From the IMG/VR virus record IMGVR_UViG_3300045988_141143: a stretch of DNA of 64,000 nt. One strand, 5' to 3'. This document shows, piece by piece, positions 3,002 through 53,632 of the stretch. The notes beneath the pieces are model-generated. The model worked only from the letters and a program-made list of their open reading frames with translations, was not told where the DNA came from and did no database searches. This DNA is from a virus. The position numbers and the translations under genes are program-made. Numbering within the stretch: position 1 is the first letter of the stretch; each line of letters opens with the position of its first letter.

Positions 3002-3173
3002 TAAATTTTTCCGTGAAACATTGTCCCTAAAAAGGGGCGTTAATACACTCAGAGCAAGTCTACTGAAAGTCTACTGAAAGTTCACTGACGTTGCTCATAG
3101 TGTAAAGGTACGAAAAACGTGCGTGAAACATCGGACATAAAAAATAATTACTAACTAAAATAACAGATTTATT

Positions 3174-3994: not shown

Positions 3995-4276
3995 TCAACA
4001 GAGCACGACAATATGATTCATCTTCAAGATATAAGCAAAGATGAAATAGTTGATGATGCTTCCCAGGATGATGACGAGGGTGTATCGCACAATATCCTCC
4101 CACTCGAACTTTGCCAAATGATAGTGTTTGTATTGATATACCTCTCTACATATCATTACAGGCAAAGCAAGCGGACCTACAAATATACTGACAAACAGCC
4201 AACAGGCGAGACCGATGAGGTCGCGCTTGTTGAGGGTGATGAGGTTTCGGAGAAATGTCTTCATACGCAGAGCCAA
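3995..4276 (-). CDS. Small membrane protein
   Basis: Two or three hydrophobic segments. Overlaps the next minus-strand gene by 16 nt. The opposite-strand ORF is D/E-rich low complexity. Confidence 0.3.
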   Translation of the reverse strand: MALRMKTFLRNLITLNKRDLIGLACWLFVSIFVGPLALPVMICREVYQYKHYHLAKFEWEDIVRYTLVIILGSIINYFIFAYILKMNHIVVLC

Positions 4277-12597: not shown

Positions 12598-12691
12598 GAT
12601 GATTTTTGATTATTTATTTTTAGATGTAGCAAAGTTACCGAAAACACTTTTCTTGATAGGGACAAAGCATGACGGGAGGGTGACACTTAGA

Positions 12692-21173: not shown

Positions 21174-22967
21174 TTACTCCTGTTCCTGCTTCTTGACGCC
21201 TGTCTTCGAGTTGTCGAGGGTGGTGAGCACCTCACGGTCTATCTGCCATTCGAGGTGTGTGTCCCATTCATTGACATCGTCGATTACCTCCAAGGCGCGG
21301 AGCATGAGCTGCTGCAATGGGGCAAACTGTATCTGCTTGACGAGGAAACGCTCACGGAGGTCGGTGCCGCCCGATGAGGTTGCGTCGCCAGGGGTGTTGC
21401 CGATGAGCTTGGAGTCGAGACCCATGGCGAAGAAGATGATGCTCGTAATCTCCTGCAGCTCGGTCTTCTCGGCTTGCGCTTGCGAGTTGGCCTTGCTCTC
21501 TATCTCCACAATCTCCCATGCCTTGTGCTCCTTGCCGTCGGCGCCGGTGAACACGGCAGAGATGAGCGCCTGACCTGCATTGTCGGGATTGGAGAGCCAC
21601 GTGTTGATGTCGCTGAACACTTCCTGCTGAAGCTGCGCCATGGTCTTGGTCTTCTTGTCGCCCTGCTGGGTGTAGAGGTTCTTGAGATATTCCTGGTGAA
21701 TGTAGATGACGCGACCGATGATGTTGGAGTTGCGCTTACGGGTGAGTCGGTCGTCGACAATGGTGAAGGCATACTCGTAGATGCTTCCGGCAAAGATGGA
21801 ATGCCAGAGGGCATCGGCATAGTAGGGACCGCCATAGTCGCGTGGCGACATGATGAAGCGGGTGGGGCGGTCCTTGCGGCTTACCCGCTGCTGACGGGCA
21901 CGGCGCACGGCTGCCTGGAGGTCTTTCACTGCCGACACGGTGGGAAGATAGGGCACGGCGGCGATGCTCTTGTCGAGGTCGGCGAACTGGGCGGTGCGGT
22001 CTTGCGTGGGGTCGAGCCACTGGTTCGACACGTAGGCATAATTGATGCGATAGTTGGTGTCCTGTCGCTCCAGTCGGGTGGTGAAGATGCTGCGGTGTTT
22101 CAGTCCTACGACCTTGGGGGTCCACTGGCTGGTGGGTACCGGCTTGCCATCGTCGGAGAGTTGCCGCTGGTTGAGTTGCAGCTCGACGAAGCACTGCGAC
22201 ATGAGCGACATGTCGCCCGCCATGTTGAGGAAGGTCTGCATCAGGTCGTTGTCCTTCATGAATTTCTGCACCTCGCGGTTGGTCTGTTCCCACTTGGCGA
22301 GGGCATCCTTCAGTGCTTTCATCTCATCGCTGTCCTTTGGCTGGCCTTCGGTCTGCTGACTGACGGAATGCAGAGGGTCGTCGGGGTCGCCGCTGACGCC
22401 GTTCTGTTGTTGTGCCTGACGTTCTGCTGCCTCCTGTGCCTTGAGGTCGGCTATCTGTCCGCGGAGCAGTGTGCCAGCCGATGCGTAGGGGATGTATTTC
22501 TCGGTGATGTTGCCGCCTACGTACTGGGTGTAGTGGTATTTGGGCGAGGGTCCGTGGCCTACGAGTATCTTCTTGATGAAGTCGACGCCGGCAGCGGTGA
22601 AGGGCGACATCCGTGAGAGAATCCAGACGAGGTTGGGCAGTCGGTTGCCCACGCCCCATTCCATGTAGCCCAGTCCGGGTGTTCCCACGCCGTTGGGCTT
22701 GGCCTTGTTCTCGCCGCCGCTGGAGGCGAAGATGGTGGAAATCTGTCGTCGTGCTCCCGATGAGGTAGTCGAGCTGCCCTGCGCTGTCATGCCGGCTGTC
22801 TCGAAGAGCATGGAGCGGACGTAATCGTTCCATGAGAAGACTTGTGCGCCGCTGTTGGGATTGATGAAAGCAGAGGGCGACACGGCCACATATCCATCGC
22901 GCTTCAGCTCCTCACTACGATCTTGGAACTGCTGTAAGTTGGTAACTCTGTTCTTGTTGCGTGACAT
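21174..22967 (-). CDS. Large virion protein, portal candidate
   Basis: 597 aa. Size and position (first gene after a strong promoter cassette) are compatible with a portal protein, but no diagnostic motif was recognised. Confidence 0.3.
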   Translation of the reverse strand: MSRNKNRVTNLQQFQDRSEELKRDGYVAVSPSAFINPNSGAQVFSWNDYVRSMLFETAGMTAQGSSTTSSGARRQISTIFASSGGENKAKPNGVGTPGLGYMEWGVGNRLPNLVWILSRMSPFTAAGVDFIKKILVGHGPSPKYHYTQYVGGNITEKYIPYASAGTLLRGQIADLKAQEAAERQAQQQNGVSGDPDDPLHSVSQQTEGQPKDSDEMKALKDALAKWEQTNREVQKFMKDNDLMQTFLNMAGDMSLMSQCFVELQLNQRQLSDDGKPVPTSQWTPKVVGLKHRSIFTTRLERQDTNYRINYAYVSNQWLDPTQDRTAQFADLDKSIAAVPYLPTVSAVKDLQAAVRRARQQRVSRKDRPTRFIMSPRDYGGPYYADALWHSIFAGSIYEYAFTIVDDRLTRKRNSNIIGRVIYIHQEYLKNLYTQQGDKKTKTMAQLQQEVFSDINTWLSNPDNAGQALISAVFTGADGKEHKAWEIVEIESKANSQAQAEKTELQEITSIIFFAMGLDSKLIGNTPGDATSSGGTDLRERFLVKQIQFAPLQQLMLRALEVIDDVNEWDTHLEWQIDREVLTTLDNSKTGVKKQEQE

Positions 22968-23007
22968 ATTCTGTTATCCTGTTTTTAGGGGTTGATGTAT
23001 GTTGTTG

Positions 23008-23031
23008 TTGCTTTTTTCGACTACAAATGTA
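23008..23031 (-). promoter_or_regulatory. Bacteroidetes-type promoter element (-7 TAnnTTTG) upstream of the 597-aa gene
   Basis: The minus strand reads TACATTTGTAGTCGAAAAAAGCAA. The identical 24-mer recurs at 24969-24992. Confidence 0.45.
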
Positions 23032-23326
23032 CTAAGAATTGTCTTAGTGGTACGGACATGAGTCAGAACTGCGAGAGCTGCACGGTGCGGTTGCCTCATT
23101 CGGCGCACCGCGTATGAGCGAAAAAACTGCGGTCCCGTCGGTTCTCCCTTCCCTTTTCCGTCCACTTCATAGAATTGGAAAGTTCGAGAGTGTTGGTAGT
23201 CTTCGGGAATGAAGCCGTGCGAGCCGCAGTTAATCTAACAATATGTTTCACGTTTTTGCATTATGGCCTATATTATGTTGTTGTCGGGGTGTTGTGTTGC
23301 GTCCGCCTACATATCGTAGTCGTACA

Positions 23327-24145
23327 TTATCGTTTGATATTCCACATGTGCTCTGCCGGACCAACGAGCACGTCGATGTTTGCGCCCTGCTTCAGGGCCA
23401 CCGTCTCCACCCATTTAAGTTGAATAAACTGCTGTGGGTTAAGATTCATCTCGTTCATATACGCCTTGTCTGCCACAGCCTTTTGGCGTTCAGCCTTCTC
23501 GCGTGCCAACTGCACCTCATATTCACGTTCCTGCGTCTGCTTGGCCTGTACCATCTTTGCCGTGCGGTTCATTTCGGCAAGCTGTTCCTTGTTTGGGGTT
23601 GCCTTGCCGATGATAACGTCCTTGATGATGACGGGCATCGGCTTGTGCTTTGAGAGGGCAGCCACGTAATCCTGCATCTGCTTCAGAATCTTCTTGTCGA
23701 TGGTGCTCAATACCTGTCGGTTAGACATCAAATCGAATGGACTGTACTGCGAGATATGGTCTCTGATAAGATTGCAGAAATAGTTGTAGAGGTTGGTGTC
23801 AAACCAGTCGCGTCCATAGTTCTGCAACAGTATGGGAGACTTGCCTTGCTCCACCTGAGTGACTATGACAGAATGGAAGTCGAGTGGCGTGTTATCGTCG
23901 GAGAAGATGTCGTCAAGAACAACCTCGTGGCGTACAGGCACAATCTTGAATGTTTCAGAATGAGTACTCAGGGCACACCATGTCAAGCCACTCTGAACTG
24001 GGTCGTTGTCAACACCTCCGTGTCCGAAGAACCATGGTTTCTTTACCAACACGGTTTCCTCGTCAGCATCGGGCGACACAAAACAGCACGAGGATAACAT
24101 CACTACTGCGATAAGCGCAAAAAGAATTGAAAATAATTTTTTCAT
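23327..24145 (-). CDS. SPFH/band-7 domain lipoprotein
   Basis: Lipoprotein signal MKKLFSILFALIAVVMLSSC. SPFH-like core with a C-terminal coiled coil QAKQTQEREYEVQLAREKAERQKAVADKA. Start chosen at Met83 of the track ORF. Confidence 0.6.
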   Translation of the reverse strand: MKKLFSILFALIAVVMLSSCCFVSPDADEETVLVKKPWFFGHGGVDNDPVQSGLTWCALSTHSETFKIVPVRHEVVLDDIFSDDNTPLDFHSVIVTQVEQGKSPILLQNYGRDWFDTNLYNYFCNLIRDHISQYSPFDLMSNRQVLSTIDKKILKQMQDYVAALSKHKPMPVIIKDVIIGKATPNKEQLAEMNRTAKMVQAKQTQEREYEVQLAREKAERQKAVADKAYMNEMNLNPQQFIQLKWVETVALKQGANIDVLVGPAEHMWNIKR

Positions 24146-24287
24146 AATTGTTTTTTGTTTATATTGATTCATTAAAATCCTTATATATGACAATCGTACA
24201 TTGTCAATAGAGTGTCTGTAGGTATTCCAGTTCTTTCCAATTCTTTCAAAACTGGAAAGAACGGGAATGGCTATACACCCGCTGCCT

Positions 24288-24839
24288 TTACGACTCAATC
24301 TCGGGAGGGTTGCCACCAGGTTTCTGCTCGCCGCCTCCAGTGGTGCCGGAATCGCCCGTGCCGGGAGTTGCTGGAGCATCCGTTGCAGCATCGCCCACTC
24401 GCTTGAACGAGCCGTGCTGTGCGAAGGCGGCGGTGAACTTCTTGGAGAAGTCGATGGCTACGCCTGCGGTGAGGTCCTTTGTGGTGAGGTCGGCGGCGGT
24501 AATCTCTCGGTTCACGTCAACGTCCTCGCCTGCTGCCTTACGTGCTTCGAGCTTCGCCTTGAGCTGGCTCTGAGTGAGCGAACCGCTGACGGTAGGACGT
24601 ACCGTCATGCCCTCGGCAGACACCTGTACCTTGGTGCCCAGTGCCAACAGAAGCGGCAGCTTTTTCTCCAACTGCGTCATCACGGCCATTACGTCCGCTG
24701 CGCCTACTGTAGAGTCCTGCGCCATGTAGTCGCAAAATTCAGGGAATGACATCTGCTGCAAGTCAACGATCTGTGCGCTTGCAACCTTTTCTTTCGTGAA
24801 ATTATTCACACGAACTGCAATTCTTGTTTTGATTGCCAT
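24288..24839 (-). CDS. HU-family (Bacteroidetes-type) DNA-binding protein
   Basis: MAIKTRIAVRVNN...AQIVDLQQMSFPEFCDYMAQDSTVGAADVMAVMTQLEKKL fits the Bacteroidales HU-like N-terminal pattern. Gly-rich acidic tail. Confidence 0.55.
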   Translation of the reverse strand: MAIKTRIAVRVNNFTKEKVASAQIVDLQQMSFPEFCDYMAQDSTVGAADVMAVMTQLEKKLPLLLALGTKVQVSAEGMTVRPTVSGSLTQSQLKAKLEARKAAGEDVDVNREITAADLTTKDLTAGVAIDFSKKFTAAFAQHGSFKRVGDAATDAPATPGTGDSGTTGGGEQKPGGNPPEIES

Positions 24840-24910
24840 AGGTTATTTTTTGTTTGGGCGTTAATACTTCCCTCTCTGTTTTTACCCGATTCCACAAAGA
24901 GGTTTTTTGC

Positions 24911-24992
24911 AATGTGCCGACACTTTTTATCGAATGTGCCGACACTTTTTGTCAAATGTGCCGACACATTGCTTTTTTCGACTACAAATGTA
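24911..24992 (-). promoter_or_regulatory. Promoter (-7 TACATTTG) plus three 16-bp dyads AATGTGCCGACAC(A/T)TT at 22-bp spacing
   Basis: Dyad starts at 24911, 24933 and 24955. GTG-N4-CAC architecture between the -7 element and the HU-like gene. Confidence 0.5.
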
Positions 24993-25024
24993 GGGAGAAA
25001 ATTTTGAGCGGTGCGGACATAAAT

Positions 25025-25795
25025 TCAGAACAGCGTGAGCTGTGCTTGCTCCAACTTGATGCGCTTGCAAGCCTTGTCGTAATACTCCTTGTTGAGCTCA
25101 AAGCCGATGAAGTTGCGCTTCTCTTTTATACAAGCAATGGCGGTGGTGCCGCTGCCCATGCAGTTGTCTAATATGGTGTCGCCCTCGTTGGAGTAAGTAC
25201 GGATGAGGTACTGGATGAGAGCGACAGGCTTTTGAGTGGGGTGGAAGCTGTTGTGAATATCCCTCTGAAATAAGACAATATCGGTTGGATATTTTTCGTC
25301 GGTTATCATATCCTTCACTTTGCCATAATTTCCGTAACATCTGTTGGTTTGCTCTTTCTCTTGCTTTCCTCTGCTGTGATTGCGTTCATGTGGAAGACAT
25401 TTGCGCATTTGTGGATGATAGGTTGGCTGTCCGTCGTAGAAAACGGAAATCATCTCCGTTTGCTTTAGAGGCATCTTCTTTGTGTTCAAAAAGCCAGTTG
25501 TACGGCATTTATCCCACGTGATATTATAGCGCCACATCTTTTCATTGCTCATCATCAGTTTTGCCGTGAACATACCCTGTCCGAACAATATTATAGCCGC
25601 ATTGGGCTTACTGATACGAAGATATTGCTTCCATAAAGAATCAAGTGGAATAATACTATCCCATCCTCCTCCTTCGCTCTGCTTATTGAGGACACCATAC
25701 GGCAAATCGCACACAATGCAATCCACGCTTCCGTCTGGAATCCTTTTCATTCCTTCGAGGCAGTCTTCATTATATATTTTGTTCAGTTCTATCAT
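25025..25795 (-). CDS. DNA methyltransferase (beta-class N6A/N4C)
   Basis: Motif IV VCDLPYG precedes motif I DNCMGSGTT. N-terminal IYNEDCLEGMKRIPDGSVDCIV. Confidence 0.8.
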   Translation of the reverse strand: MIELNKIYNEDCLEGMKRIPDGSVDCIVCDLPYGVLNKQSEGGGWDSIIPLDSLWKQYLRISKPNAAIILFGQGMFTAKLMMSNEKMWRYNITWDKCRTTGFLNTKKMPLKQTEMISVFYDGQPTYHPQMRKCLPHERNHSRGKQEKEQTNRCYGNYGKVKDMITDEKYPTDIVLFQRDIHNSFHPTQKPVALIQYLIRTYSNEGDTILDNCMGSGTTAIACIKEKRNFIGFELNKEYYDKACKRIKLEQAQLTLF

Positions 25796-26837: not shown

Positions 26838-26993
26838 TTTTACAGAATCCTAAGTTTTTATCCCAAAAATGCCAAAATTGGATTATTTTAGTCCAGAAAA
26901 ATCCAAAAATGGACGAATTTAATCCCAAAAATCCAAAAGCTGGACCAGATTTATCCAGAAAAATCCAAAAATGGATGGGAAAGTTATCAAAAA

Positions 26994-27548: not shown

Positions 27549-27847
27549 AGTTTATCGTTTTCTTGTTCTGTTATGTATAAATGTAGGGCAAAGATACAAA
27601 AAAGTCATCCATCGTGCGGGACAAAAATATCCCAGATACTTTGCATGGCAGACTGCGCACCGTGGTCGGCGCAGCCGGAAAACAATGGAAGCCGCAATGC
27701 TGCACTCTTCGTGGAGCAAAGCGGCTTCTGAAACGAAATATTATCCTGAAAAGGAAAGATTACCATTTTGCTGACGCCAGCAAAATGATATTCGGCTCTT
27801 TTTACCTTTTTACTTTTTTGTCTTAGAAATCAGCAAGAAAGCTCTTT

Positions 27848-30530: not shown

Positions 30531-31439
30531 TTATCGCATGGCTTCCTCAAGAGTTCTAATATAAGGTATGGCTTCGTTGCGCACAATGTCGAGAAAAAGT
30601 TGTGCTGACCGCTTCATCGGCACGTCCTTCATCCAGTGGGCATTGCTCATCAGGTCGTGCTCAAGCCCAGCGATGGGACGGACGGTAAGGGTGGGGTGAC
30701 TCTTCAGATAAAGTTTAGGCATGAAAGTAACACAATGGGTTTCTTCCACGATGGCAAGGTCTTCGTTGGGGTCGCTCACAATACATTTTACATTCAGTTT
30801 CATCAAGTCGTATCTCAGATATTGCTGGAAGGTATTGAACACCCTTTCGCCTACATCGGGCATAATCACGTTGTGCCTTAACAAATCCTCGTATGACACC
30901 TTTTCCAGTCGGGCCAAAGGATGGGTGTCCCGCATCATCGCATAGATACGGAAAGGAATACAGGGTTCTGACTTGATACCCTCATTCTTGTAGGCAGAGT
31001 TCAGAGTGAAGGCGAGGTCAATGGAGTGGCTTCTCAACAGGTGGTTCAAGTTCGCTGCCTTGGCAAACTCGGCGTTGATTCTCACATTCGGGTATCGCTC
31101 CATGAAGATAAGTGCAGCCATCCGAATGTAAGGTGCGATAAAAGAGCCTACACCTATCCTCAGCTCGCCCACAAGGCAGTTGTTGAGCGCATTGATTTGC
31201 TCCTTGCAGTCATCCGTCTGCTTCAGTATCTCCTTGGCGCGAGGCAAAAGCGCCTCGCCGCTCTCGGTGAGCATGATGCTGTGCGAGGTGCGGATAAGCA
31301 GCTTGCACCTCAGTTCATCCTCAAGAGCCTTGATGTGCTGACTGATGGCGGACTGAGTGACACAACAGCGCGTGGCTGCAATGCTGAAAGATAAAGTTTC
31401 AGCGACATATACAAATGAGCGCAAATGACGAAGTTCCAT
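30531..31439 (-). CDS. LysR-family transcriptional regulator
   Basis: N-terminal HTH MELRHLRSFVYVAETLSFSIAATRCCVTQSAISQHIKALEDEL followed by a LysR substrate-binding-like domain. Confidence 0.75.
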   Translation of the reverse strand: MELRHLRSFVYVAETLSFSIAATRCCVTQSAISQHIKALEDELRCKLLIRTSHSIMLTESGEALLPRAKEILKQTDDCKEQINALNNCLVGELRIGVGSFIAPYIRMAALIFMERYPNVRINAEFAKAANLNHLLRSHSIDLAFTLNSAYKNEGIKSEPCIPFRIYAMMRDTHPLARLEKVSYEDLLRHNVIMPDVGERVFNTFQQYLRYDLMKLNVKCIVSDPNEDLAIVEETHCVTFMPKLYLKSHPTLTVRPIAGLEHDLMSNAHWMKDVPMKRSAQLFLDIVRNEAIPYIRTLEEAMR

Positions 31440-35552: not shown

Positions 35553-35757
35553 ACGGGTTTAAAAATTAAGATTGTGAATGTAAGTTATCCTGTAAACAAT
35601 TCTTTTTACCAAAGAATGTACTATGTCAAATGTTTCTGTTTGCAAAGGTAATAGATTGAAGGTAGGCAAAAAGGACAAAAAAACGCCGCTATCCTCACGG
35701 ACAACGACGTTGACAACTAAATACTATTTCTGATATTTAACGAATATATTATAAAAT

Positions 35758-49898: not shown

Positions 49899-50096
49899 TG
49901 TTGTGTTTGATTTTTAATGTGTGAAGTAAATGTGAAGTGTTATCCTGTTTTGATTAAGATACGATGCAAAGGTAACGAAAGGCGAAAAAACGGGTGGGAC
50001 ATATTATTTCGCCATGGGGACGGGCAGCGAGGCTTGTCCCAATCGTTTTGGGACGATTTCGTAACTTTGCCGACGTAACAAACAACATAAACAAAG

Positions 50097-50900: not shown

Positions 50901-50977
50901 AAACGAAACAGAAGTATCTGTTTGATGCAAACATAAGTATCTGTTTGATATAAACAATGGGCATCGTTTGAAAAACA

Positions 50978-51145
50978 ACTTGCCGACACTTTTCATCGAA
51001 TGTGCCGACACATTAAAACGAAGGTGTTAGCACTTTTTGCCAAAAGTGTTAGCACATTTTACCAAAAGTGTTAGCACATCAAAAAAACGGAGGTTCAGTT
51101 GATTTCATCAAAAGAGTCGGCTGATTTCGCCAAAAGAGTCGAACC
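50978..51145. promoter_or_regulatory. Array of seven phased 22-bp repeats (GTG-N4-CAC dyads) upstream of the plus-strand operon
   Basis: TGCCGACAC at 50981 and 51003. TGTTAGCAC at 51025, 51047 and 51069. CAAAAGAGTCG at 51111 and 51133. All at exact 22-bp phasing. Confidence 0.5.
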
Positions 51146-53603: not shown

Positions 53604-53632
53604 GCTACACAACACAAAATCAGGATAACACA

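What the first reader, a model, noticed from the sequence alone, without database searches (positions are those of the whole stretch)
22990..23100. Duplicated ~100-bp promoter cassette upstream of the 597-aa structural gene and of the HU-like gene
Both loci (22995-23090 and 24958-25050) share the 24-mer TTGCTTTTTTCGACTACAAATGTA, which on the minus strand is the Bacteroidetes -7 element TACATTTG. They also share a ~45-bp block GGT(A/G)CGGACAT(G/A)A(G/A)T(T)CAGAAC(T/A)GCG(A/T)GAGCTG. At 24958-25050 the latter block encodes the last codons of the DNA methyltransferase gene (..AQLTLF*). The copy at 23051-23090 therefore carries a non-coding remnant of that gene end, which points to module duplication by recombination. 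The copy at 23032-23047 adds a perfect dyad CTAAGAATTGTCTTAG directly after the -7 element.
Basis: seen in the sequence. Interest (0 to 1): 0.5.

Follow-up and report, generated by a model that had tools for sequence, protein, structure and literature searches.

The report
Two copies of a phage promoter
The two repeated stretches are two of seven copies of a rigid two-part promoter signal (WTGTCC, 22 bases, TAnnTTTG) that an uncultured family of ~100-kb Prevotella phages places in front of its virion, packaging and lysis genes, and the copy before the portal gene was copied from the junction between a methyltransferase gene and the HU-like gene.

Summary
The 24-mer occurs exactly twice (0 expected), and the neighbouring block is about 82% identical between the copies.

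Both copies belong to a strand-specific, fixed-spacing motif, WTGTCC-N22-TAnnTTTG. It occurs 7 times in the window, against 0.025 expected. In 1.07 Mb of related phage loci it occurs 124 times on the gene strand and 0 times on the other strand, and almost never at any other spacing. In the window it precedes the tail, head, endolysin, HU-like, portal-like, tail-fibre and packaging genes.

The downstream half is the Bacteroidota -7 element. The upstream box sits at about -39 to -35 and replaces the usual -33 TTTG.

- **Copy B** drives an accessory cassette (HU-like gene plus SPFH lipoprotein gene) that is inserted between two genes adjacent in simpler relatives.
- **Copy A** restarts the portal operon after that cassette. 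Relatives without an insert lack it (0/15). Relatives with an insert have it (39/39).

Copy A carries a 42-nt pseudogene remnant of a methyltransferase 3' end. The remnant matches the D12-class allele of sister phages better than the window's own gene.

The 'dyad' is not conserved. Promoter activity, timing and the reading factor are inferred, not shown.

The parts
23024..23059 (-). Promoter copy A: box ATGTCC (23059-23054), 22-nt spacer, -7 element TACATTTG (23031-23024). It lies 56 nt upstream of the ATG of the portal-like gene.
   Evidence: Exact match to WTGTCC-N22-TAnnTTTG. Homologous position in 70 of 71 relatives that have an insert upstream of the portal gene.
23008..23023 (-). First 16 nt after the -7 element (TAGTCGAAAAAAGCAA), identical in copies A and B. 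This is the 3' part of the 24-mer and is native to the HU-gene leader.
   Evidence: 16/16 identical between A and B, against at most 10/16 for any other promoter pair. A diverged homologue, tactcaaaaattgcaa, sits in the HU leader of L041.
23032..23047 (.). Inverted repeat CTAAGA-N4-TCTTAG inside the spacer of copy A. Probably not functional.
   Evidence: Not present in copy B or in copy A of L008. L038-type HU promoters have CCAAAACAATTCTTAG at this position.
23063..23104 (-). Pseudogene remnant of a D12-class DNA methyltransferase 3' end (…AE*GNRTVQLSQF*), including its stop codon (23065-23063).
   Evidence: 93% identity over 43 nt to the end of the methyltransferase in L004/L006. Translation. 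L008 orthologue is PF02086. Alignment.
23121..23229 (-). Terminator-like long hairpin closed by CUGCGG/CCGCAG and followed by U6, downstream of the SPFH lipoprotein gene.
   Evidence: RNA fold (whole segment z = -1.8, so weak). Coordinates.
21174..22967 (-). 597-aa portal-like protein gene, the first gene served by copy A.
   Evidence: tblastn match to the annotated portal of Polaribacter phage Leef_1, 29% identity, E 3e-13. No Pfam or PHROG hit.
23327..24145 (-). SPFH/Band-7 lipoprotein gene (accessory cargo).
   Evidence: PF01145 and phrog_200. 94% identical in relatives whose portal is only 74% identical.
24230..24262 (-). Strong hairpin just after the HU-like gene.
   Evidence: Fold z = -6.5. 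The same hairpin is kept in L038, where the HU gene is truncated.
24288..24839 (-). HU-HIG family DNA-binding protein gene (accessory cargo), served by copy B.
   Evidence: PF18291.
24903..24970 (-). Three 22-bp direct repeats (AAAAGTGTCGGCACATT on the minus strand) in the HU leader. Operator- or iteron-like.
   Evidence: Concerted variant GTGTTAGCAC in L002. Other repeat types occupy the same place in relatives.
24969..24984 (-). First 16 nt after the -7 element of copy B, identical to copy A.
24985..25020 (-). Promoter copy B: box ATGTCC (25020-25015), 22-nt spacer, -7 element TACATTTG (24992-24985). It lies 145 nt upstream of the HU-like gene ATG.
   Evidence: Every HU gene in relatives is preceded by the same bipartite motif directly after a methyltransferase stop codon.
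25025..25795 (-). N6_N4 DNA methyltransferase gene. Its last six codons plus stop (25025-25045) lie in the repeated block.
   Evidence: PF01555, phrog_67. C-terminus ...AQLTLF*.
49967..50002 (-). Same promoter class, upstream of the holin-like gene and tail (tape-measure) operon.
50034..50069 (+). Same promoter class, back-to-back with the previous one, upstream of the 267-aa gene and the terminase-like operon.
   Evidence: The divergent pair is conserved in 34 of 80 related loci.
35643..35678 (-). Same promoter class, upstream of the 573-aa protease/scaffold-like head gene. It abuts a terminator hairpin at 35678-35709.
27589..27624 (-). Same promoter class, upstream of the endolysin gene.
12630..12665 (-). 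Same promoter class, upstream of the 771-aa tail-fibre gene.
3103..3138 (-). One-mismatch variant (…TACCTTTA) of the motif. The downstream gene is uncertain.

Best explanation
Copies A and B are two functional, leftward-reading promoters of a class specific to this phage family: W-TGTCC, exactly 22 nt, then TAnnTTTG.

**Anatomy.** The downstream half is the ordinary -7 element read by the Bacteroidota housekeeping sigma factor. The upstream box lies at about -39 to -35. It takes the place of the usual -33 TTTG but sits some 4-6 bp further upstream.

**How it probably works.** I infer that host RNA polymerase uses these promoters only together with a phage-made helper, either an activator or a sigma-remodelling or sigma-like protein. 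That would make them the phage's late-gene switch.

**What each copy does.** Copy B expresses an accessory cassette (HU-like protein plus SPFH lipoprotein) inserted between gene p344 and the portal gene. The three 22-bp repeats in its leader give it an extra layer of control. Copy A sits after the cassette's terminator-like hairpin and restarts transcription of the portal/morphogenesis operon.

**Origin of copy A.** An illegitimate recombination event copied a segment to the front of the portal gene. The segment comprised the last 42 nt or more of a D12-class methyltransferase gene, the promoter, and the first 16 nt of an HU-gene leader.

**Shown:** motif, spacing, strand, positions, conservation, association with the insert, the remnant.

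**Inferred:** promoter activity, late timing, dependence on a phage factor, terminator function.
For: 1. The exact-spacing motif occurs 7 times in the window (6 on the minus strand, which is the coding strand there, and 1 on the plus strand before a plus-strand gene). Shuffles give 0.025 on average and 1 at most.
2. In 80 related loci (1.07 Mb) there are 124 copies on the gene strand and 0 on the other strand. Spacings of 14-31 nt other than 22 give 0-2.
3. Upstream of portal genes only 74% identical in protein, the surrounding DNA is unalignable, yet the box and the -7 element persist at the same spacing.
4. A logo of 96 unique copies shows W before TGTCC, G almost absent at the two 'n' positions (0.04 and 0.00) and an A-rich spacer. 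This matches the published TAHHTTTG -7 element and AT-rich spacer of Bacteroidota promoters (PMC6847099).
5. All window copies lie 27-145 nt upstream of a start codon. The genes are holin-like/tail, protease/scaffold-like, endolysin, HU, portal-like, tail fibre and the terminase-side operon. The primase and nucleotide-metabolism block and the HTH-regulator genes instead have candidate canonical TTG-N19-20-TAnnTTTG promoters. None of the TGTCC class has TTG at 17-22 nt. A 21-kb early-like region beyond the window has none of the motif.
6. Association with the insert is perfect. With a p344-portal gap under 200 nt, 0/15 loci have the motif. With a gap of 200 nt or more, 39/39 have it. With p344 more than 6 kb away, 31/32 have it.
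7. Beyond the consensus, A and B share 16/16 nt downstream, against 10/16 or fewer for other pairs. A also carries a methyltransferase 3' remnant with an in-frame stop.
8. In an IMG/VR-wide scan, every locus with two or more copies belongs to this phage family.
Against: - There is no transcription-start or expression data of any kind.
- No candidate factor was identified. Pfam/PHROG scans of about 70 proteins, from the window and 10 kb beyond it, found no sigma, MotA- or AsiA-like protein. About 25 kb of the phage genome was not examined.
- No host (Prevotella) chromosome was available. The motif could therefore also be a host promoter subtype that unaided host polymerase reads.
- 'Late' rests on gene function only.
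- The terminator-like structure after the SPFH gene is weak as a whole (z = -1.8).
- HU-like, methyltransferase and lipoprotein genes are not classic late genes.
Confidence: 0.72

Rival explanations
1. The sites are real promoters, but unmodified host RNA polymerase with the housekeeping sigma factor reads them. On this view TGTCC is only an unusual upstream contact, and expression is constitutive rather than a phage-controlled late switch.
For: The -7 half is a textbook Bacteroidota element. In Flavobacterium the -33 element is poorly conserved anyway (PMC6847099). No phage factor was found. Accessory genes such as methyltransferases are often expressed from host-type promoters.
Against: The invariant 22-nt spacing and the invariant 5-nt box, 4-6 bp upstream of the normal -33 position, are not features of described host promoters. 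The same phage has candidate canonical TTG-N19-20-TAnnTTTG promoters before its replication and regulator genes. In IMG/VR, multi-copy occurrence was seen only in this family.
Confidence: 0.2
2. The two copies are neutral debris of a segmental duplication and have no function of their own.
For: Copy A contains an obvious gene remnant. The exact 24-mer points to a recent copying or gene-conversion event.
Against: The box and the -7 element are conserved at fixed spacing across relatives whose flanks are unalignable. They are strand-specific and always lie upstream of genes.
Confidence: 0.03
3. The motif is a recombination or cassette-capture site, in the manner of integron attC sites or phage 'boundary sequences'. 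On this view it mediates exchange of accessory modules and is not a promoter.
For: The motif sits at the borders of swappable cargo. Three unrelated methyltransferase types end at the same junction. Spacer alleles are mosaic between copies and lineages.
Against: The same motif heads core operons (tail, head, lysis, fibre, packaging) that are not cargo. Half of it is the host -7 promoter element. No recombinase is associated with it. Thirteen conserved bases are too few for homologous exchange.
Confidence: 0.03
4. TGTCC is an operator for a repressor that overlaps otherwise weak host promoters, giving negative rather than positive control.
For: The box overlaps the -35 region, where repressors commonly bind. 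The p267 promoter has a second inverted GGGAC half-site (GTCCCAA-N5-TTGGGAC).
Against: Most copies have a single asymmetric box with no dyad. A repressor site need not keep an exact distance to the -7 element. Without a -33 element, the promoters would need some positive contact.
Confidence: 0.05

Closest known systems
Bacteroidota housekeeping promoters (sigma-ABfr; -33 TTTG / -7 TAnnTTTG; Bayley et al. 2000, as summarised in PMC6847099)
   Same: The -7 element is TAnnTTTG with G excluded at the two variable positions, and the spacer is A/T-rich.
   Different: There is no TTTG or TTG 17-22 nt upstream. Instead an invariant WTGTCC lies exactly 22 nt upstream of the TA, at about -40 to -35.
Phage T4 middle promoters (host -10 element plus MotA box; sigma appropriation by MotA/AsiA). 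Recalled from general knowledge.
   Same: A host-type downstream element is combined with a phage-specific upstream box that replaces the host upstream element. The box is repeated before a temporal class of phage genes.
   Different: The box sequence and position differ (TGTCC at about -37, against TGCTT at -30). The host phylum and sigma factor differ. No MotA or AsiA homologue was seen among the proteins scanned. The mechanism is untested.
Activator-dependent late promoters of Mu (C protein; PMC4461284, seen) and P2/P4 (Ogr/Delta; general knowledge)
   Same: A handful of late operons are each headed by a promoter with a poor or absent upstream element and a conserved activator site.
   Different: Those activator sites are dyads bound by dimers. 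Here the box is a single asymmetric pentamer at rigid distance, which is more like recognition by a sigma factor.
Morons of lambdoid phages (promoter-gene-terminator units inserted between genes that are adjacent in relatives; Juhala/Hendrix 2000, general knowledge)
   Same: The methyltransferase, HU and SPFH cargo lies between p344 and the portal gene, which abut in 15 relatives. It has its own predicted promoter and terminator-like hairpin and a lower G+C content (0.475 against 0.53-0.57).
   Different: The cargo promoter belongs to the phage's own morphogenesis-gene class, not to a host-type lysogen-expressed class. A second copy of the promoter restarts the downstream core operon.

Membership tests
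Bacteroidota sigma-ABfr (-33/-7) promoter | -7 element TAnnTTTG (TAHHTTTG) | tested here: met
   TACATTTG in both copies. In 96 unique family copies G is at 0.04 and 0.00 at the two n positions.
Bacteroidota sigma-ABfr (-33/-7) promoter | -33 element TTTG/TTG about 19-21 nt upstream of the -7 element | tested here: not met
   None of the 7 window copies has TTG at 17-22 nt. The conserved element is TGTCC at exactly 22 nt, whose TG lies 25 nt from the TA.
Bacteroidota sigma-ABfr (-33/-7) promoter | Transcription start about 5 nt downstream of the -7 element | not testable with these tools
   No RNA data were available.
WTGTCC-N22-TAnnTTTG promoter class of this phage family (defined here) | Box, exact 22-nt spacer and -7 element, on the coding strand, less than 150 nt upstream of a start codon | tested here: met
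   Copy A is at 23024-23059, 56 nt from the ATG. Copy B is at 24985-25020, 145 nt from the ATG.
WTGTCC-N22-TAnnTTTG promoter class of this phage family (defined here) | Conservation at the orthologous position in diverged relatives | tested here: met
   Portal upstream: 70 of 71 loci with an insert. HU upstream: all 13 loci inspected.
Moron (inserted promoter-gene-terminator unit) | Lies between two genes that are adjacent in related phages | tested here: met
   p344 and the portal gene are 27-157 nt apart in 15 relatives and 0.2-4 kb apart in 39 others.
Moron (inserted promoter-gene-terminator unit) | Own promoter and own terminator | tested here: inconclusive
   The promoter motif is present. 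A hairpin plus U6 follows the SPFH gene but the fold is weak overall. No functional data.
T4-type middle promoter / sigma appropriation | MotA box (a/t)(a/t)TGCTT(t/c)a at -30, and MotA and AsiA proteins | tested here: not met
   The box sequence and position differ. No such Pfam families appear among about 70 proteins scanned. Only the working principle is analogous.
Segmental duplication carrying a gene remnant | Similarity between the copies beyond what function requires, plus a decayed coding fragment | tested here: met
   16/16 nt are identical downstream of the -7 element. A 42-nt methyltransferase 3' remnant has an in-frame stop.
Known structured RNA (Rfam) | Match to a covariance model at gathering score | tested here: not met
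   No hit in the window. The only sub-threshold hit is a palindromic hairpin at 24218-24276.

The most novel reading that the evidence does not exclude
The WTGTCC box may be the recognition site of a so far unidentified phage-encoded transcription factor. This could be a sigma-like protein, a sigma-appropriation pair, or the LysR-type regulator that is a conserved core gene of this phage family. Such a factor would redirect Prevotella RNA polymerase to late genes. It would be the first late-transcription switch described for a Bacteroidota phage that relies on host polymerase. It would also give a sequence tag that marks late operons and cargo boundaries in hundreds of uncultured gut phage genomes.
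Probability: 0.4. Interest if true: 0.7.

Novelty: new variant of a known kind. Interest (0 to 1): 0.5.

Why it matters
Almost nothing is known about how phages of gut Bacteroidota time their gene expression. Almost all members of this family are uncultured ~100-kb genomes from gut and similar metagenomes, and most of their genes have no annotation.

- **Annotation.** A rigid, easily searched promoter signature gives a direct handle on their operon structure. It separates presumed late genes from early genes. It also shows that accessory cargo (DNA methyltransferases, an HU-like protein, a lipoprotein) is wired into the phage's own programme rather than expressed like a lysogenic-conversion gene.
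- **Experiment.** The signature defines a concrete question: which protein reads TGTCC at -37?
- **Genome evolution.** The duplicated copy shows how such phages keep downstream core genes expressed after taking up cargo, namely by carrying a second promoter behind the insert.

Tried and rejected
- **Dyad CTAAGA-N4-TCTTAG as an operator.** Rejected. It is absent from copy B and from copy A of sister phage L008, and it is derivable from the L038-type spacer by two substitutions.
- **Hairpin CGGTGCG…CGCACCG at 23082-23111.** Its arms are mutated in L007 and L008, so it is not conserved.
- **HU-like protein binding its own leader repeats.** Not supported. HU proteins 89-91% identical to the window's (L055, L085) sit behind a different repeat, GGTTCGAAC.
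- **Known RNA families.** None found.
- **Cultured relatives.** The phage collection gave only methyltransferase hits by DNA and a distant portal hit by protein.
- **Host DNA as a control.** I tried to obtain it through homologues of the LysR-type regulator. All top hits were phage copies, which showed instead that the regulator is a family core gene.
- **Search for the reading factor.** Pfam/PHROG scans of the window and of 10 kb beyond its right end found no sigma or known late activator.
- **IMG/VR-wide pattern scan.** It is informative only in that multi-copy loci all belong to this family.
- **Literature.** Searches for TGTCC with TAnnTTTG, or for late promoters of Bacteroidota phages, found nothing.
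- **Leader motif CAGGATAAC.** Enriched in the window but not strand-biased across relatives. Left as a side note.

Full report
**Observation**

The 24-mer TTGCTTTTTTCGACTACAAATGTA occurs at 23008-23031 and 24969-24992 and nowhere else in the window, even with three mismatches. Shuffled sequence gives no match. The pair extends to 52 nt at 81% identity. With one indel it continues through a further block of about 33 nt.

All genes here read on the minus strand:
- N6_N4 DNA methyltransferase, 25025-25795
- HU-HIG protein, 24288-24839
- SPFH/Band-7 lipoprotein, 23327-24145
- a 597-aa protein, 21174-22967, whose only outside match is a distant one to an annotated portal protein

Copy B overlaps the last codons of the methyltransferase (...AQLTLF*). 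Copy A has the same frame decayed to ...AE*GNRTVQLSQF*.

**What the repeat really belongs to**

I fetched 80 loci encoding relatives of the 597-aa protein from IMG/VR. Most are only about 74% identical in protein, and their upstream DNA cannot be aligned with the window. Even so, nearly all show [A/T]TGTCC followed, after a fixed distance, by TAnnTTT(G/A).

Counts for the exact pattern TGTCC-N22-TAnnTTTG:

| Sequence searched | Result |
|---|---|
| Window | 7 copies: 6 on the minus strand, 1 on the plus strand |
| Window, shuffled | 0.025 on average, 1 at most |
| 1.07 Mb of related loci, gene strand | 124 copies |
| 1.07 Mb of related loci, opposite strand | 0 copies |
| Same loci, spacings 14-31 nt other than 22 | 0-2 copies |

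A frequency table from 96 unique copies adds several features:
- W before TGTCC
- a C-rich stretch after the box
- an A-rich spacer
- a C on each side of the -7 element
- almost no G at the two variable positions of TAnnTTTG

The last two features agree with the published description of Bacteroidota promoters. There the -7 element is T-12 A-11 H H T-8 T-7 T-6 G-5, and AT-rich spacer motifs are seen (PMC6847099). On that numbering the TGTCC box occupies about -39 to -35. No member of the class has the canonical TTG 17-22 nt upstream.

**Where the copies sit**

In the window the seven copies lie 27-145 nt upstream of these start codons:
- a holin-like gene heading the tape-measure operon (motif 49967-50002)
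- a 573-aa protease/scaffold-like head gene (35643-35678)
- the endolysin gene (27589-27624)
- the HU-like gene (24985-25020, copy B)
- the portal-like gene (23024-23059, copy A)
- a tail-fibre gene (12630-12665)
- on the other strand, a 267-aa gene that heads the operon containing a terminase-like gene (50034-50069)

The primase and nucleotide-metabolism block and the HTH regulator genes have candidate canonical TTG-N19-20-TAnnTTTG promoters instead. A 21-kb region of small early-type genes beyond the right end of the window has no copy of the motif. The divergent pair at about 50.0 kb is conserved in 34 of 80 related loci.

In an IMG/VR-wide scan with a stricter version of the pattern, every locus with two or more copies shared protein homology with this phage. 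Genome bins that contain relatives are mostly labelled Prevotella.

I conclude that this is a promoter class specific to the family and attached to virion, packaging and lysis genes. It is presumably the late class.

**Why there is a copy in front of the portal gene**

The backbone order in relatives is p175 - endolysin - p344 - portal, with 0 to 4 kb of variable cargo between p344 and the portal gene.

| Arrangement in relatives | Loci with the motif upstream of the portal gene |
|---|---|
| p344 abuts the portal gene (gap under 200 nt) | 0 of 15 |
| Gap of 200 nt or more | 39 of 39 |
| p344 further than 6 kb away | 31 of 32 (the exception is truncated) |

The smallest inserts, about 215 nt, consist of a hairpin plus the promoter.

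In the window the cargo consists of:
- the methyltransferase gene
- copy B
- three 22-bp repeats
- the HU-like gene
- a strong hairpin (z = -6.5)
- the SPFH lipoprotein gene
- a long hairpin closed by CUGCGG/CCGCAG and followed by U6

Copy A then follows. Copy A therefore looks like a restart promoter for the core operon behind a cargo cassette that ends in a terminator.

**Origin of copy A**

Outside the consensus positions, A and B share all 16 nt downstream of the -7 element. Other promoter pairs share at most 10 of 16. The homologous stretch is present, diverged, in the HU leader of the distant relative L041, directly followed by the same repeat. This stretch therefore belongs natively to the HU leader.

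Upstream of the box, copy A carries 42 nt (23063-23104) that match the 3' end of the methyltransferase of sister phages L004/L006/L008 at 93%. That enzyme is a D12-class adenine methyltransferase (PF02086) and is unrelated to the window's N6_N4 enzyme. Both enzymes end in QLTLF* followed by the box. The joint at which methyltransferase alleles are exchanged therefore lies inside the last codons.

A third lineage (L038 and similar) has only a remnant of a C5-type methyltransferase end before the same promoter, together with a truncated HU gene.

The spacer of copy A resembles the L038-type HU promoter spacer. The spacer of L008's copy A resembles the window's copy B. The alleles are therefore mosaic, and the 'dyad' in the window's copy A is a lineage-specific accident.

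The simplest history is an illegitimate recombination event. It placed a segment in front of the portal gene, comprising a methyltransferase end, the promoter and the leader start from a methyltransferase-HU junction. Gene conversion between the two copies followed.

**Mechanism and its limits**

The fixed spacing and the asymmetric single box suggest one protein, or one polymerase-bound complex, touching both halves. The -7 half points to the host housekeeping sigma factor. The box lies 4-6 bp further upstream than the normal -33 contact. My best reading is therefore host polymerase plus a phage-made activator or sigma-modifying or sigma-like factor. This is analogous in principle to T4 middle promoters, but it is not a member of that system.

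No such factor was found among about 70 proteins scanned. A LysR-type regulator (30531-31439) proved to be a conserved core gene of the family and is a candidate, but the box lacks the dyad typical of LysR sites.

I could not obtain host chromosomal DNA. The rival that unaided host polymerase reads these sites therefore stays open, at about 0.2. Promoter activity, timing and terminator function are all inferences from sequence.

**Comparison with known systems, and novelty**

The -7 half is a member of the known Bacteroidota element. The whole promoter fails the -33 criterion of that class. The cargo meets the positional criterion of a moron. I found no description of the TGTCC box or of late promoters in Bacteroidota phages in the searchable literature. 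No Rfam family matches.

I rate it a new variant of a known kind. It is a phage-specific promoter class with one duplicated member. Interest is moderate.

Noticed in passing
window 24903-24970 and 50906-51141: Three 22-bp direct repeats (AAAAGTGTCGGCACATT on the minus strand) lie in the HU-gene leader. A 'hub' between the 267-aa gene and the PAPS-reductase-like/terminase-like genes holds four adjacent arrays, all of period 22-23: AAGTATCTGTTTGAT, CAATGGGCAT, GTGCCGACAC, GTGTTAGCAC and AGAGTCG. Every repeat type found in some relative's HU leader (GTGTTAGCAC in L002, ACAATGCCCATTGT in L004/L008, GGTTCGAAC in L055/L085) also occurs in a hub (window, L093-L099). The repeats do not track the HU protein sequence. 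They may be operators, iterons or a packaging site. The binding protein is unknown.
   Followed up: partly
window 30531-31439 (-): A full-length LysR-type regulator (HTH_1 plus LysR_substrate domains) sits among the head genes. It is a conserved core gene of this phage family: over 100 homologues at 65-94% identity, many on contigs of 85-107 kb. This is unusual for a phage, and the protein is a candidate regulator.
   Followed up: partly
window 25025-25045; L004 1081-1104; L008 about 4005-4028: Two unrelated DNA methyltransferases (N6_N4 class in the window, D12 class in sister phages) end in the same six codons, QLTLF*, followed by the same promoter box. The recombination joint for swapping methyltransferase alleles therefore lies inside the coding end.
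   Followed up: partly
L038 3834-4240 (and L045, L050, L052, L059, L061): These relatives keep only the last 50 or so codons of a C5-type methyltransferase and a truncated HU gene (first 36 codons) in front of the same hairpin and SPFH gene. The SPFH gene is 94% identical to the window's although the portal is 74% identical, which points to recent horizontal spread and decay of the cassette.
   Followed up: partly
window 22973-22981, 35584-35592, 49939-49947 (-), 53621-53629 (+): CAGGATAAC occurs 4 times (0.29 expected), each time in the leader of a late gene: portal-like, head protease-like, holin-like and terminase-like. It is also conserved about 25 nt upstream of the portal ATG in the diverged L010 clade. 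It is not strand-biased overall in relatives. Function unknown.
   Followed up: partly
window 35678-35709 (-): A terminator-like hairpin with loop TTGTCCGTGAGGA and a T6 tail abuts the head-operon promoter. The same hairpin precedes the portal promoter in 13 relatives and appears elsewhere in 17 further loci, as if terminator-promoter units move between positions.
   Followed up: partly
window 49967-50069: Two promoters of the class stand back-to-back, with boxes 34 bp apart, and fire in opposite directions into the tail operon and the packaging operon. The plus-strand one has a second inverted half-site (GTCCCAA-N5-TTGGGAC).
   Followed up: partly
window 26857-26975: A tandem repeat of period 31 (3.9 copies, TTTATCCAGAAAAATCCAAAAATGGACCAA) lies between the endolysin gene and p344.
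   Followed up: no
L004 470-800 (contig IMGVR_UViG_3300045988_151591): The D12-class methyltransferase reading frame is broken at homopolymer runs (A13, G7-8) in this contig, but is intact (376 aa) in L008. This may be an assembly error or a phase-variable tract.
   Followed up: no
window 1489 (-), 2161 (+), 3800 (+), 41319 (-): Candidate canonical Bacteroidota promoters (TTG-N19-20-TAnnTTTG) lie next to the Cro/CI-type HTH genes at the left end and upstream of the primase gene. They contrast with the TGTCC class.
   Followed up: partly
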